Assembly (NCBI GenBank): GCA_035508655.1
Contig: DATJMP010000123.1
Coordinates: forward strand, 6,386-70,385
DNA length: 64,000 nt
From: Bryobacteraceae bacterium
Lineage (GTDB): Bacteria > Acidobacteriota > Terriglobia > Bryobacterales > Bryobacteraceae
Reading direction: 5' to 3'
This document shows, piece after piece, positions 10,321 through 58,691 of this stretch. The position numbers were made by a program, and so were the translations under genes. The notes beneath the pieces are model-generated. The model worked only from the letters and a program-made list of their open reading frames with translations, was not told the DNA's origin and ran no database searches. Within the stretch, counting starts at the first letter, position 1, and each line of letters starts with the position of its first letter.

Positions 10321-10818
10321 CTACCTGGCGGACTTCGCCTCTTCGTTGATGTACGACTCTGCCAGGGCCGTCAATTTCTTGTCCGTCTCACCTTCCTCCT
10401 GAAGGGTCTCATGGAGCAGGCGAGCTTGACCGTCATATCCCAGACGCCGGGCATAGTTTCGCGCCGTGCCGTACGCCGCAATCTCGTAGTGCTCGACGCG
10501 CTGTGCCGAACCGATCAACCCGGCATCGCAAACGGCCGCCGGAGAATCTTCGCTCATCAGGTCTTCGCCTTCGTCGATAATACCCTCGACCCCTTTGCAT
10601 TTGCGGCCTTTGGGTGATTCATCGAGTTGCTGAAAGATCTGCTCCAGCCGTTCGACCTGACGGCGGGTCTGCTCCAGATGGGTCTCGAAAGCGTTGCGCA
10701 GTTCCTGCGAACTGGCTGCTTCCGACATCTTGGGTAGGGCCTTTATGATGCGGTTCTCCGCGTCGTATAAGTCCTTCAGTTCCATAACATACAGGTCGTG
10801 CAGAGAGTTGATTTTCAT
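10321..10818 (-). CDS. Ferritin-like DUF892 protein (YciE/YciF family stress protein)
   Basis: Track ORF trimmed to MKINSLHDLYVMELKDLYDAENRIIKALPKM, the typical family N-terminus. GGAGGGGG Shine-Dalgarno sits upstream of ATG 10818. Confidence 0.85.
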   Translation of the reverse strand: MKINSLHDLYVMELKDLYDAENRIIKALPKMSEAASSQELRNAFETHLEQTRRQVERLEQIFQQLDESPKGRKCKGVEGIIDEGEDLMSEDSPAAVCDAGLIGSAQRVEHYEIAAYGTARNYARRLGYDGQARLLHETLQEEGETDKKLTALAESYINEEAKSAR

Positions 10819-57253: not shown

Positions 57254-57341
57254 TCAGACAGCGCTGTCTGAGCACACTCGCGAAAGTGATTCATTCTAAA
57301 AGGGGAGGCTGTCGCAGGTTCAGACATCCTGTCTGAACCTG
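57254..57341. repeat. Two hairpins sharing TCAGACA/TGTCTGA arms downstream of the CMD-family gene
   Basis: tcagacagcgctgtctga (57254-57271, perfect palindrome) and caggttcagaca-tcc-tgtctgaacctg (57315-57341, 12-bp stem). The second may terminate the MBL-CMD operon; there is no clear U-tract. Confidence 0.5.
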
Positions 57342-57387
57342 GGAAGCGAAGGGCGTGGTCCGATTTCCTTTCTGAGGCTTTCTCCCT

Positions 57388-57981
57388 CTAGCGCACATAC
57401 CCGCTTTGAGCCATCCGTTTGCCGCCGGCGCGATGGGCCTCCTCCGACATCGGATGGACGCCGGTGGCGTCAATCCAGCGATTATAGAAATTGAACAGCG
57501 AGCAGACGGTGATGGCGTAGAAAATCGCATCATCCTCCCAGCCGGCCGCATGCAGCGCCTCGATATCCGCCGGGGTAATGTGGCGGGAATCCGCATTGAC
57601 CTTGGTGACGAATCGGAACAACGCCTTGTGGCGATCGTCCAACGGCGAGTTTTCGAAATCGCGCAGGACCGCCTCCACTAGCGTCTCGCTACCCAACAAT
57701 TCCGCCGCGACCGCGGCGTGGGCCTTAATTCAAAATGGACAGTCGTTGCGGTAGGAGGTAAACGCCGCGATCAGTTCCCGGATGCCCGGGCTGAGTGGCG
57801 CATCGCCCCGCATGATCTCCTGAGTGAAACGGGAGAGGTGGTCGCCGGCTGCCTGGCGGAAGGCGAACAGGCGCCAGATCTGGGGGTACTCTACGCCGGC
57901 CTTTTGCAGCATCTCGATGGTGTCGCGGTAGGGGCCCGGCTGCGAACCGTTTTCGACTCCGGGAAGGAACAGCGGATCCAT
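57388..57981 (-). CDS. Carboxymuconolactone-decarboxylase/AhpD-family peroxidase-related protein, probable selenoprotein (UGA 57730-57732 read as Sec)
   Basis: Track ORFs 57730..57981 and 57388..57699 are in the same frame. Read-through gives ...SYRNDCPF-U-IKAHAAVAAELLGSETL..., matching the N-x-C-x-[YF]-C-x-x-x-H AhpD core motif. The joined length of 197 codons fits the family. Confidence 0.65.
57703..57718 (-). promoter_or_regulatory. Candidate bacterial SECIS hairpin
   Basis: mRNA CGCCGC-GGUC-GCGGCG has a 6-bp GC stem and a GGUC tetraloop. The loop begins 17 nt after the UGA. Confidence 0.55.
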
Positions 57982-57983
57982 GA

Positions 57984-58691
57984 CTATTTCCCATACCAGT
58001 CGCGCAGGCGAACGTCGATGCCGGTGCCGTTGAGCGCCTGCGCGAAGATCTTGGTGTCCTGCCCACGGTAGTGATAGGGATAGACCACAGCCGGATGGAA
58101 AGCGCGGACGGCTTCGGCTGCCGCCTGAGGCGTCATGGTGAAGGGCAGGTTCATGCAGACAAACGCAACATCGATGTTCCGGAGGGCCTTCATTTCCGGA
58201 ATGCCCTCGGTGTCGCCCGAAAAGTAGAAGCGCTTGCCGCCATACGTCAGGATGTAGCCGTTGCCGCGTCCTTTGGGGTGGTAGAGAGTGCCGTCGGCGG
58301 CCGGCTTCATGTTGTACATGGGGATGGCTTCCACCTGGAAGGGGCCGATTGGCTTCGTTTCGCCATTTGTAATGACGGTTGCTCCCTTCACGCTGGCGGC
58401 CACGGCCTGCGGCGCGAGGATGACCGTGTCGGGTTTGCGGAGTTTCTCAACCAGCGGCGGCGCCATGTGGTCGCCGTGGATATCGGTGATGAGGATGAAG
58501 TCGGCCTTGGGAAGACCGTCGTAGGAACCTTGGGCGGGGTCCACGTAGAGCACCTTCCCGCCGGCCTGGATCATGAGGCTGGCATGCTGGATGGGGGTGA
58601 GACGGAGTTGGCCGGCAGAGGTCGGGAAGTCTTCCGTGGCGGCCGCTATAAGCGGAACGGCGCAGCAGAGGGCAAGGGCGAATCGGTACAT
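57984..58691 (-). CDS. Exported MBL-fold metallo-hydrolase
   Basis: Signal peptide MYRFALALCCAVPLIAAA; ...ILITDIHGDHM... metal motif; 235 aa. Its stop lies 2 nt before the CMD-family start. Confidence 0.85.
   Translation of the reverse strand: MYRFALALCCAVPLIAAATEDFPTSAGQLRLTPIQHASLMIQAGGKVLYVDPAQGSYDGLPKADFILITDIHGDHMAPPLVEKLRKPDTVILAPQAVAASVKGATVITNGETKPIGPFQVEAIPMYNMKPAADGTLYHPKGRGNGYILTYGGKRFYFSGDTEGIPEMKALRNIDVAFVCMNLPFTMTPQAAAEAVRAFHPAVVYPYHYRGQDTKIFAQALNGTGIDVRLRDWYGK

What the first reader, a model, noticed from the sequence alone, without database searches (positions are those of the whole stretch)
57388..57981. Probable selenoprotein: in-frame UGA at the catalytic Cys of an AhpD/CMD-family gene with an fdhF-like SECIS hairpin
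Seen: two same-frame minus-strand ORFs are separated only by TGA (57730-57732). Read-through gives ...ELIAAFTSYRNDCPF-[UGA]-IKAHAAVAAELLG.... The AhpD/CMD core redox motif is N-x-C-x-[YF]-C-x-x-x-H, so the UGA replaces the second redox Cys. The joined 197-codon product has full family length. The downstream 'ORF' only starts at a TTG. Seventeen nt after the UGA the mRNA can fold CGCCGC-GGUC-GCGGCG. As I recall, the E. coli fdhF SECIS also has a GGUC apical loop about 18 nt after its UGA. AhpD-like proteins are a reported bacterial selenoprotein family. Automated annotation would call two fragments or a pseudogene.
Basis: partly seen in the sequence, partly recalled or inferred. Interest (0 to 1): 0.85.

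Follow-up and report, generated by a model that had tools for sequence, protein, structure and literature searches.

The report
Selenocysteine-containing AhpD-like peroxidase-related gene
This is one intact gene for a small redox enzyme whose apparent internal stop codon almost certainly encodes selenocysteine; it belongs to an already catalogued selenoprotein family, and its main practical importance is that gene callers routinely split or mistranslate it in soil Acidobacteria.

Summary
Window 57388-57981 (minus strand) is a 197-codon frame with one in-frame TGA (57730-57732). It sits at the second Cys of the C-x-x-C redox motif of an AhpD/CMD-fold protein. The joined protein passes the curated TIGR01926 cutoff.

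- All 163 related loci fetched from metagenomes and named Acidobacteriota MAGs keep the TGA.
- The frame after it stays open and under purifying selection (dN/dS about 0.12, versus 0.15 upstream).
- No conserved restart codon follows the TGA.
- TGA is an ordinary stop elsewhere.

A 6-bp hairpin with an N-G-U-N loop, 17 nt after the UGA, is conserved at synonymous sites and covaries (A..U in 89, G..C in 57). It degenerates in Cys-form relatives encoding the same peptide, and it meets every published bacterial SECIS criterion.

In five MAGs, a deiodinase-like gene with its own catalytic TGA lies next to the orthologue. Its hairpin presents G-U at the same +19/+20 spacing.

The Sec machinery could not be checked in this genome, only at lineage level.

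"AhpD-like, TIGR01926, CxxU" is already a listed selenoprotein family. This is a new member of a known kind, of modest interest.

The parts
57388..57981 (-). Complete AhpD-like (TIGR01926, peroxidase-related) selenoprotein gene: 197 codons including one UGA (Sec84), with a TAG stop at 57388-57390
   Evidence: All 161 complete orthologues keep the frame open on both sides of the TGA. dN/dS is 0.145 upstream and 0.119 downstream.
57730..57732 (-). In-frame TGA, the predicted selenocysteine codon (residue 84). It is the second position of the C81-P-F-U84 redox motif.
   Evidence: Aligns with Cys in 93 of 120 homologue clusters. It is TGA in 163 of 163 related loci and in four near-identical strains.
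57703..57718 (-). SECIS hairpin. The 5' arm CGCCGC is at 57718-57713, the loop GGUC at 57712-57709, and the 3' arm GCGGCG at 57708-57703. G-U sits at +19/+20 after the UGA. The hairpin lies inside the codons for H88-A-A-V-A-A93.
   Evidence: dG is -10.8 kcal/mol. Pairing is 98.7% with covariation at three pairs, 0 of 500 shuffles. RNAalifold gives the same helix. Synonymous-site entropy and pS are depressed only here. The pairing is lost in Cys forms with the same peptide.
57739..57741 (-). Cys81 codon (TGT), the predicted resolving cysteine of the CxxU centre
   Evidence: Invariant in all Sec-type orthologues.
57775..57777 (-). Glu69 codon (GAA) in the invariant R-E-L-I-A-A segment. It lies 12 residues before Cys81, the spacing I recall for the AhpD proton-relay Glu.
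   Evidence: Invariant in alignments A1 and A3. Aligned to RE[ML]IA in PDB 2pfx, 3c1l and 6k40. The catalytic role is inferred from M. tuberculosis AhpD, from my own knowledge.
57718..57720 (-). His88 codon (CAC), four residues after Sec84 (the C-x-x-[C/U]-x-x-x-H motif). Its third base is also the first base of the SECIS stem.
   Evidence: His is invariant. The CAC/CAU third base pairs with position +27 as C-G in 131 sequences, U-A in 3 and U-G in 3.
57733..57735 (-). Phe83 codon UUU immediately 5' of the UGA, a conserved codon-context feature
   Evidence: TTT in 110 of 113 unique orthologues, although 73% of the other Phe codons in the same genes are TTC.
57984..58691 (-). Upstream MBL-fold (Lactamase_B_2/3) gene. 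It ends 2 nt before the ATG of the selenoprotein gene, so the two are probably co-transcribed in this lineage only.
   Evidence: This neighbourhood is shared only with the nearest relative L084.

Best explanation
Window 57388-57981 (minus strand) is one intact gene for a 197-residue AhpD-fold thiol/selenol oxidoreductase of the TIGR01926 'peroxidase-related' family.

How the UGA is read. UGA at codon 84 is recoded as selenocysteine. During translation, a SelB-type elongation factor carrying Sec-tRNA(Sec) binds a small hairpin in the mRNA: a 6-bp G+C stem with a 4-nt loop N1-G-U-N2, with G-U at +19/+20 after the UGA. SelB then delivers Sec to the ribosome in competition with release factor 2. 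This step is inferred from the established bacterial mechanism.

What the product does. The product carries a C81-x-x-U84 redox centre with His88 at +4 and Glu69 at -12. By analogy with AhpD, Sec84 is the nucleophile that attacks a peroxide or an oxidised partner. Cys81 resolves the intermediate as a selenenylsulfide, which a cellular thiol or lipoyl reductant recycles. The physiological substrate is unknown.

Shown versus inferred. Shown here: family membership, the Sec/Cys pair, conservation of the TGA, selection on the downstream frame, and RNA-level selection on the hairpin. Inferred: actual Sec insertion, SelB binding, and the chemistry.
For: 1. Family. TIGR01926 scores 100.8 bits against a cutoff of 81.8, and PF02627 scores 29.3 against 23. 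The closest solved structures are CxxC AhpD-fold proteins 2pfx, 3c1l and 6k40, at E = 1e-18 to 3e-15.

2. Sec/Cys pair. The TGA column holds Cys in 93 of 120 homologue clusters.

3. Conservation of the TGA. It is present in 163 of 163 related loci, including 80 species-representative Acidobacteriota MAGs, and in four near-identical strains.

4. The downstream part is translated. 161 of 161 genes have open frames. dN/dS is 0.119 downstream and 0.145 upstream. There is no conserved restart codon; the window's TTG is start-capable in only 31-38% of orthologues.

5. The genetic code is not reassigned. TGA ends about 19 of 50 long ORFs in the window, and it is the terminal stop of 51 of 161 of these same genes.

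6. SECIS.
- 98.7% of cells are paired. Positions +18/+21 covary as A-U in 89 and G-C in 57. Compensatory changes also occur at 12/27 and 15/24. No shuffle out of 500 reached the observed values.
- Third-position entropy is 0.10-0.14 bits at the hairpin Ala codons, against 1.5-1.7 bits at the invariant Ala codons upstream.
- pS is 0.26 in the six SECIS codons, against about 0.67-0.80 elsewhere.
- Four Cys-form relatives encoding the same H-A-A-V-A-A peptide have lost the wobble pairing.
- All four bSECIS criteria quoted in PMC13188914 are met: a 4-nt loop, a 6-bp stem, G then U in the loop flanked by pairing N1/N2, 17-nt spacing, and -10.8 kcal/mol.

7. Independent sign of Sec decoding in carriers of this gene. 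In five named MAGs and two metagenome contigs, a T4_deiodinase-family gene (96.7 bits against a cutoff of 27) with TGA at the canonical GSYT-U-PPF site lies 0.3-3.8 kb downstream. Its hairpin presents GGU at +18 to +20, so G-U sits at the same spacing as here.

8. Lineage. Solibacter usitatus (Bryobacterales) has SelA and SelB (PMC1794560 supplement 3). SelA homologues at 71-90% identity are common in Bryobacteraceae and Acidobacteriia MAGs.

9. The family is already listed as 'AhpD-like protein, TIGR01926, CxxU'.
Against: - No selA, selB, selD or tRNA-Sec was found in the 64-kb window or in the ±10 kb around 80 orthologues. The Sec trait of this particular organism is therefore not shown.
- SelA-bearing contigs could not be tied to the same assemblies as the orthologue loci.
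- No Rfam family matches the hairpin.
- The single-sequence fold is not better than shuffles.
- No protein-level evidence exists, such as 75Se labelling or mass spectrometry.
- The hairpin lacks the bulged U of the E. coli fdhF element.
- The biochemical function of TIGR01926 proteins is not established.
Confidence: 0.9

Rival explanations
1. The UGA is read through, but with a standard amino acid (Trp, Cys, Arg or Gly) by near-cognate or suppressor decoding. On this reading the conserved hairpin acts as a generic read-through stimulator rather than a SelB-binding SECIS.
For: Nothing in the sequence identifies the inserted residue directly. The Sec machinery was not found in the DNA available. 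JGI callers already read the codon as Trp.
Against: - The codon sits exactly at the catalytic Cys of a family already listed as CxxU selenoproteins.
- The hairpin fits the SelB-type bSECIS model, including the G-U loop and the spacing.
- A neighbouring deiodinase-like gene has TGA at its canonical Sec site with G-U at the same spacing.
- Trp or Gly at a redox Cys position would inactivate the centre, and a Cys could simply be encoded as UGY.
- SelA and SelB exist in the order.
Confidence: 0.04
2. Two separate products. Translation ends at the UGA to give an 83-residue N-terminal protein, and a C-terminal protein of about 100 residues is started independently, so the family is split in two.
For: Gene callers report 83-aa plus 96- or 103-aa genes. 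A TTG lies 11 codons after the TGA in the window.
Against: - No conserved start codon follows the TGA. The best candidates are synonymous Leu or Val codons that are start-capable in 31-52% of orthologues.
- The ten codons between the TGA and that TTG include the invariant catalytic His88 and are under strong purifying selection.
- A split would separate C81 from H88 and cut a single helical domain that is continuous in the solved homologues.
- The two pieces are always in the same frame, 161 of 161.
Confidence: 0.03
3. Pseudogene: a nonsense mutation has inactivated a former Cys-form AhpD-like gene.
For: An in-frame stop in an otherwise full-length family member is the usual signature of a pseudogene.
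Against: - The same TGA is present in 163 of 163 relatives spanning 59-100% protein identity and several orders.
- No other disabling mutation appears in 161 genes.
- dN/dS downstream is 0.12 while synonymous sites are near saturation.
Confidence: 0.01
4. Sequencing or assembly error: the true codon is TGC or TGT.
For: A single-base error would produce exactly this picture in one assembly.
Against: The TGA is identical in the window and in three independently assembled contigs from different samples that differ from it elsewhere. It is also present in 160 further loci from many projects, including long-read MAGs.
Confidence: 0.005

Closest known systems
AhpD-like selenoprotein family (COG2128 / TIGR01926, CxxU). 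First reported from Sargasso Sea and GOS metagenomes, and listed in the 2026 prokaryotic selenoproteome review (PMC2398784, PMC13188914).
   Same: The HMM family is the same and the score is above the curated cutoff. The C-x-x-U motif is the same, with Sec at the second redox position. Cys homologues are abundant, and a bSECIS follows directly after the UGA.
   Different: Nothing that defines the family differs. This member and its 163 nearest relatives come from soil and peat Acidobacteriota rather than marine samples. Among the loci recovered, this clade appears uniformly Sec-containing. The SECIS is very compact, and the UUU-UGA context is conserved.
Mycobacterium tuberculosis AhpD, the alkylhydroperoxidase that recycles AhpC through lipoamide (role summarised in PMC8945050)
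   Same: Both have the AhpD/CMD all-helical core domain (TIGR00778, 28.4 bits against a cutoff of 27.8). Both have a C-x-x-C-x-x-x-H motif with a Glu 12 residues upstream. The MtAhpD residue numbers Glu118, Cys130, Cys133 and His137 are from my own memory.
   Different: MtAhpD was not among the PDB sequence matches at E <= 0.01. There is no ahpC next to the gene; the neighbours are an MBL-fold protein and a hypothetical protein. It has Sec in place of the nucleophilic Cys. It is not an AhpD orthologue in the strict sense.
Cys-form 'peroxidase-related' AhpD-fold proteins with solved structures: 2pfx, 3c1l, 2oyo, 2prr and 6k40. A Deinococcus radiodurans AhpD-like protein, DR1765, has been characterised (Zhao et al. 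2020, as summarised in PMC8945050).
   Same: They have the same length (about 190-200 residues), the same RE-x-IA...N-x-C-x-[FY]-C-x-x-H core and the same C-terminal FN-x-x-NR motif, with E = 1e-18 to 4e-14. The DR1765 mutant is sensitive to H2O2, and complementation depends on the CxxC Cys residues.
   Different: They have Cys, not Sec. Identity is only about 30%. Whether 6k40 is DR1765 itself was not checked here.
Escherichia coli fdhF SECIS
   Same: Both have a GGUC apical loop with G-U exposed, at almost the same distance from the UGA: the loop starts at +19 in fdhF and at +18 here. This was verified on NC_000913.3.
   Different: The fdhF upper stem has a bulged U and continues into a longer lower helix. 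Here the stem is a perfect 6 bp with no conserved lower helix. The loop's first and last bases covary (G..C or A..U), and the loop may read AGUU or AGGU.
NF041238 AhpD_rel_CFYUT and NF053654 YciW-related (seleno)proteins
   Same: They are also AhpD-related selenoprotein families with CxxU.
   Different: The scores are far below their cutoffs: 35.2 against 175, and 19.9 against 310. The gene belongs to neither family.

Membership tests
AhpD-like selenoprotein (TIGR01926 / COG2128, CxxU) | Whole-protein score above the curated TIGR01926 cutoff | tested here: met
   100.8 bits against a cutoff of 81.8, covering profile positions 6-176 of 178, with C substituted for U.
AhpD-like selenoprotein (TIGR01926 / COG2128, CxxU) | C-x-x-[C/U] redox motif, with the in-frame UGA aligned to Cys in homologues (a Sec/Cys pair) | tested here: met
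   C81-P-F-U84. The column is Cys in 93 of 120 clusters and TGA (called 'W') in 22.
AhpD-like selenoprotein (TIGR01926 / COG2128, CxxU) | UGA conserved in orthologues, with both flanks under purifying selection | tested here: met
   163 of 163 loci keep the TGA. dN/dS is 0.145 upstream and 0.119 downstream.
AhpD-like selenoprotein (TIGR01926 / COG2128, CxxU) | Bacterial SECIS after the UGA: a 3-9 nt loop, a 4-16 bp stem, G in the first two loop positions followed by G or U, 16-37 nt spacing, and MFE <= -7.5 kcal/mol (criteria quoted in PMC13188914) | tested here: met
   The loop is 4 nt (GGUC, AGUU or AGGU). The stem is 6 bp. Seventeen nt lie between the UGA and the loop. The energy is -10.8 kcal/mol. 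Covariation supports the helix.
AhpD-like selenoprotein (TIGR01926 / COG2128, CxxU) | Sec-decoding machinery (selA, selB, selC, selD) in the same genome | not testable with these tools
   Only 64 kb of the genome is available. No sel genes or tRNA-Sec are in it or in the flanks of 80 orthologues.

The indirect evidence is as follows:
- S. usitatus has SelA and SelB.
- SelA is common in Bryobacteraceae MAGs.
- A second TGA-containing selenoprotein-family gene lies next to the orthologue in five MAGs.
AhpD-like selenoprotein (TIGR01926 / COG2128, CxxU) | Selenium actually incorporated at residue 84 | not testable with these tools
   This needs 75Se labelling or mass spectrometry.
Canonical AhpD (AhpC-recycling alkylhydroperoxidase, M. 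tuberculosis type) | Close sequence relationship to MtAhpD, and genomic pairing with ahpC | tested here: not met
   Only the generic core-domain model TIGR00778 is reached, barely (28.4 against 27.8). MtAhpD is not among the PDB matches at E <= 0.01. No AhpC/Prx gene lies next to the gene in the window.
NF041238 AhpD_rel_CFYUT selenoprotein | Score above the curated cutoff | tested here: not met
   35.2 bits against a cutoff of 175.
E. coli fdhF-type SECIS | GGUC-type loop with G-U about 20 nt after the UGA | tested here: met
   In fdhF the loop GGUC is at +19 to +22. Here it is at +18 to +21.
E. coli fdhF-type SECIS | [quoted passage not shown] | tested here: not met
   The stem is a perfect 6 bp. 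RNAalifold finds no further conserved pairs.
Rfam SECIS families | Covariance-model match | tested here: not met
   There is no match at gathering thresholds over the whole window. There is no SECIS family match even at E <= 10 on 57640-57780. This is uninformative for so short a bacterial element.

The most novel reading that the evidence does not exclude
The gene may represent a large clade of TIGR01926 proteins, spread across Acidobacteriota, that always uses Sec; no Cys form appeared among the 163 nearest loci. That would make it one of the commonest soil selenoproteins.

On this reading, a lineage-specific SelB requires only a minimal 6-7 bp hairpin that presents G-U exactly at +19/+20, with a covarying N1-N2 loop-closing pair. 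A UUU codon 5' of the UGA would be an additional context requirement. In some lineages the protein would work as a two-selenoprotein module with an adjacent deiodinase-like selenoprotein, or as a Sec/Cys tandem fusion.
Probability: 0.35. Interest if true: 0.45.

Novelty: new member of a known kind. Interest (0 to 1): 0.3.

Why it matters
The first point is about annotation. Standard gene callers split this gene into two hypothetical proteins. On short contigs they switch to a code that reads the TGA as Trp, which produces at least 22 'W' protein clusters in public databases. Hundreds of soil and peat contigs are affected; 495 of the first 600 pattern matches in the metagenome collection encode a relative.

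The second point is about biology. The gene adds to evidence that Acidobacteriota, a dominant soil phylum, use selenium in redox defence. It also gives a clean, heavily sampled natural alignment of a minimal bacterial SECIS, which could guide SelB-specificity studies and SECIS predictors.

It does not change what is known about selenoprotein families or about the recoding mechanism.

Tried and rejected
1. Sec machinery.
- ARAGORN on the window and on 83 loci found no tRNA-Sec.
- Pfam scans of 36 window ORFs, together with the precomputed annotation of about 48-64 kb, found no SelA, SelB or SelD.
- I tried to tie SelA to the same assemblies as the orthologue loci.

2. Rfam. Scans at gathering thresholds on the whole window, and at E <= 10 on the SECIS region, found no SECIS family.

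3. Other selenoprotein genes.
- A scan of the window for ORF pairs separated by a TGA found only this gene to be credible.
- A hairpin-constrained scan of all loci returned three junk hits and missed the deiodinase-like genes, because its stem criteria were too strict. Those genes were found later by homology.

4. Conserved gene neighbourhood. The MBL-fold, hypothetical and two-component neighbours are shared only with L084, so context gives no functional clue.

5. Look-ups that failed. P0001 was not on record.

6. Not done. I judged structure prediction unnecessary, because sequence matches to solved AhpD-fold structures were already significant.

7. Rejected readings. Pseudogene, sequencing error, split gene and code reassignment are rejected for the reasons given under the rival explanations.
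Full report
**The observation.** On the minus strand, window 57981 to 57388 is a single 197-codon reading frame. It runs from ATG to TAG and is interrupted only by TGA at 57730-57732, reading ...RELIAAFTSYRNDCPF-[TGA]-IKAHAAVAAELLG.... Mechanical ORF calling gives an 83-aa piece and a 103-aa piece that begins at a TTG. The hairpin CGCCGC-GGUC-GCGGCG lies at 57703-57718. Its stem starts 11 nt after the UGA and its loop 17 nt after. For this one sequence the predicted fold is no better than shuffled controls (z = -0.46). The case for the hairpin must therefore rest on comparison with relatives.

**Family.** With Cys placed at the TGA, the joined protein passes the curated cutoff of NCBIfam TIGR01926, 'peroxidase-related enzyme' (100.8 bits against 81.8, nearly full length). 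It also passes Pfam CMD PF02627 (29.3 against 23). It falls far short of two other AhpD-related selenoprotein models, NF041238 and NF053654. The nearest solved structures are CxxC proteins of the AhpD fold: 2pfx, 3c1l, 6k40, 2oyo and 2prr, at E = 1e-18 to 4e-14. They share the RE-x-IA...N-x-C-x-[FY]-C-x-x-H core. In an alignment with database homologues, the TGA column is Cys in 93 of 120 clusters. In 22 clusters, all JGI calls on contigs of about 1-2 kb, the column reads 'W'. I read the DNA of one of these (P0009). It matches the protein at every residue except that the 'W' is a TGA codon. Those clusters are therefore Sec forms read under a code in which TGA means Trp.

**Not an error and not a pseudogene.**
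- The upstream MBL-fold protein led to three separately assembled contigs, one from ENA and two from JGI samples. They are near-identical to the window but not identical, and all carry the same TGA.
- Locus searches in metagenome contigs and in one genome per GTDB species returned 160 further relatives. These included 80 named MAGs, mostly Bryobacterales, Bryobacteraceae and Solibacteraceae, with some Vicinamibacterales, Terriglobia and Acidobacteriaceae. Every one has TGA at this codon.
- All 161 complete genes keep the frame open for 112-122 codons after the TGA (one runs to 219), with no other internal stop.
- Synonymous sites are close to saturation (pS about 0.64-0.70), yet dN/dS is 0.145 upstream and 0.119 downstream of the TGA. 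The downstream part is therefore translated in this frame.
- No conserved restart codon exists. The window's TTG is a synonymous Leu codon that could serve as a start in only 31-38% of orthologues.
- TGA is a normal stop codon in this organism. It ends about 19 of 50 long ORFs in the window. It is also the terminal stop of 51 of 161 of these very genes. Reassignment of the genetic code is therefore excluded.

**The hairpin is selected as RNA.**
- Across 147 distinct sequences, the six stem pairs plus the +18/+21 pair are formed in 98.7% of cells. No shuffle out of 500 reached the observed pairing or covariation score, and every slid-register control collapses.
- RNAalifold independently predicts the same 6-bp helix and nothing else.
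- Positions +18 and +21 are both third codon positions (Ala and Val). They covary almost perfectly: A..U in 89 sequences, G..C in 57, and one exception. The resulting loops are AGUU, GGUC or AGGU.
- Compensatory changes also occur at 12/27 (C-G to U-A) and 15/24 (C-G to U-A). An Ala-to-Val substitution keeps pair 13/26 as G-U.
- Third-position entropy is 0.10-0.14 bits at two of the hairpin's Ala codons. At the invariant Ala-Ala of RELIAA, 40 nt upstream, it is 1.5-1.7 bits.
- pS is 0.26 in the six SECIS codons, against 0.80 in the next six.
- The decisive control uses four Cys-form relatives that encode the identical H-A-A-V-A-A peptide. They use other synonymous codons. Three of the four break pair 15/24, and none has the G..C or A..U arrangement at 18/21. 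The structure is therefore not a by-product of the peptide sequence.

**Comparison with the SECIS consensus and with fdhF.** The 2026 review PMC13188914 quotes four criteria for a bacterial SECIS: a loop of 3-9 nt, a stem of 4-16 bp, a G in the first two loop positions followed by G or U with flanking N1/N2 that pair, and 16-37 nt between the UGA and the loop with MFE <= -7.5 kcal/mol. The element meets all of them, with a 4-nt loop, a 6-bp stem, 17-nt spacing and -10.8 kcal/mol. That sequence reads UGA-CACGGCCCAUCGGUUGCA-GGUC-UGCACC, so its GGUC loop starts at +19, against +18 here. Its stem has a bulged U and a longer helix that this element lacks. Rfam has no matching family.

**Sec decoding in the carriers.** The window and the ±10 kb around 80 orthologues contain no tRNA-Sec, SelA or SelD. 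Three indirect lines support the trait.
- The 2006 survey lists Acidobacteria as Sec decoders, with 3 families and 4 selenoproteins. Its supplement gives SelA and SelB sequences of Solibacter usitatus, a member of Bryobacterales.
- A search with that SelA found more than 120 clusters at 71-90% identity. Several are named as Bryobacteraceae or Acidobacteriia MAG proteins. The two contigs I could read belong to assemblies other than those of my loci.
- On two metagenome contigs and in five named MAGs (L110, L115, L125, L091, L134), a T4_deiodinase-family gene (96.7 bits against a cutoff of 27) lies 0.3-3.8 kb downstream of the orthologue. On L175 it overlaps the orthologue's end by 14 nt. It carries an in-frame TGA at the canonical ...FGSYT-U-PPF... 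site. Its post-UGA RNA folds into a 7-bp hairpin with GGU at +18 to +20. The G-U therefore sits at +19/+20, as in the AhpD-like gene, and the closing pair changes from A-U to C-G in L134. Two unrelated genes with TGA at their catalytic sites and the same hairpin geometry are what a shared SelB would require.

**Mechanism.** The recoding steps are inferred from the established bacterial pathway: SelB with Sec-tRNA(Sec) binds the hairpin and competes with release factor 2 at the UGA. The product has C81-x-x-U84, with His88 at +4 and Glu69 at -12. As I recall, M. tuberculosis AhpD has the same spacing (Glu118, Cys130, Cys133, His137), and there the second Cys is the nucleophile. By that analogy, Sec84 would attack a peroxide or an oxidised partner, and Cys81 would resolve the intermediate. 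In D. radiodurans, an AhpD-like Cys homologue protects against H2O2 in a CxxC-dependent way (Zhao et al. 2020, as summarised in PMC8945050). The true substrate of TIGR01926 proteins is unknown. There is no ahpC next to the gene, so I do not file it as an AhpD orthologue.

**Novelty.** AhpD-like proteins with CxxU (COG2128 and PF02627) were among the most abundant selenoprotein families in the GOS data, with 299 and 70 sequences. The 2026 review lists 'AhpD-like protein, TIGR01926, CxxU' explicitly. This is therefore a new member of a known selenoprotein family, decoded by the known mechanism. The additions here are modest:
- Every relative recovered from the Acidobacteriota carries Sec.
- The SECIS is very compact, with a covarying loop-closing pair.
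- The UUU-UGA context is conserved.
- The gene is sometimes paired with a deiodinase-like selenoprotein.
- Public gene calls for it are systematically wrong.

**Verdict.** Confidence that this is a genuine Sec-encoding gene is about 0.9. Interest is about 0.3.

Noticed in passing
L175:806-1519 (TGA at about 1124-1126); also L176, L110:5801-6502, L115:10663-11310, L125:10766-11452, L091:1940-2530, L134:10457-11179: A deiodinase-like/Prx-fold gene (PF00837, 96.7 bits) with an in-frame TGA at the canonical FGSYT-U-PPF site lies 0.3-3.8 kb downstream of the Sec-AhpD orthologue. This is seen in five named Acidobacteriota MAGs and two metagenome contigs. On L175 it overlaps the orthologue's end by 14 nt. 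Its hairpin presents GGU at +18 to +20, the same G-U spacing as in the AhpD-like gene. The window has no such gene.
   Followed up: partly
L169:2083-3366 (TGA at 2332-2334): This is a 427-codon tandem fusion of two AhpD-like domains. Domain 1 has C-P-F-TGA followed by the same SECIS (CACGCCGCGGTCGCGGCG). Domain 2 has an ordinary C-R-Y-C. Gene callers report it as 83 aa plus 332 aa. The database proteins P0001, P0007, P0010 and P0015 all begin just after the TGA.
   Followed up: partly
window 57733-57735 and the same codon in the orthologues: The Phe codon directly before the UGA is UUU in 110 of 113 unique orthologues, whereas 73% of the other Phe codons in the same genes are UUC. The base after the UGA is C in 85, A in 25 and G in 3, and never U. 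This suggests a codon-context constraint on recoding, beyond the hairpin.
   Followed up: partly
window 57254-57271 and 57312-57344; L084:10704-10724 and 10776-10803: Two inverted repeats sharing the core TCAGACA...TGTCTGA are the only two matches in the 64-kb window, where chance predicts none. Both lie in the 185-nt spacer between this gene's stop and the next gene. The same-species contigs L001-L003 have them too. The 89%-identical relative L084 has two inverted repeats at the same place with a compensated core, GAGACA...TGTCTC. They could be RNA hairpins or a paired operator. I did not resolve which.
   Followed up: partly
database proteins P0002-P0028 and P0055 (22 clusters); L174/L175:232-819: JGI gene calls on contigs of about 1-2 kb translate the Sec TGA as Trp (C-P-F-W). 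The resulting full-length 'uncharacterized peroxidase-related enzyme' entries therefore carry a wrong residue at the active site. I verified this on the DNA of P0009.
   Followed up: yes
P0005 (L164:3001-3597, L165) and P0038 (L168:79-699): The Cys-form relatives closest to the Sec clade (up to 76% identity) have T-x-F-C: the first Cys of the motif is replaced by Thr. Their former SECIS codons have drifted, partly so in P0038. They may be Sec-to-Cys reversions that lost the resolving Cys. No phylogeny was done.
   Followed up: partly
window 57982-57986 and 57984-58691; L084: An MBL-fold (Lactamase_B_2/3) gene ends 2 nt before the ATG of the selenoprotein gene. A 192-aa protein with no Pfam match and an OmpR/HisKA two-component pair follow downstream. 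This arrangement is shared only with L084 among 79 genome loci, so it is specific to this lineage.
   Followed up: yes
window 57388-57981 versus L001:10711-11304, L002:3596-4189 and L003:2174-2767: The window is identical to none of the three public contigs that carry the same gene. The four sequences differ at four columns (303, 348, 349 and 447 of alignment A2): two synonymous changes and one Arg/Ser codon difference. Several closely related strains of this organism have therefore been sampled in different soils.
   Followed up: yes
window about 14.1-20.5 kb and about 47.5-50 kb: Other content of the window:
- a WS/DGAT wax-ester synthase, an aldehyde dehydrogenase, a PhaR-like PHB_acc_N regulator and an ABC1 kinase at 14-20.5 kb;
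- flagellar genes (FlgM, FlgK, flagellin) and a sigma-54 activator at about 47.5-52 kb;
- a B12-binding radical SAM protein next to a family-21 glycosyltransferase at 43.6-46.4 kb.

None relates to selenium.
   Followed up: no
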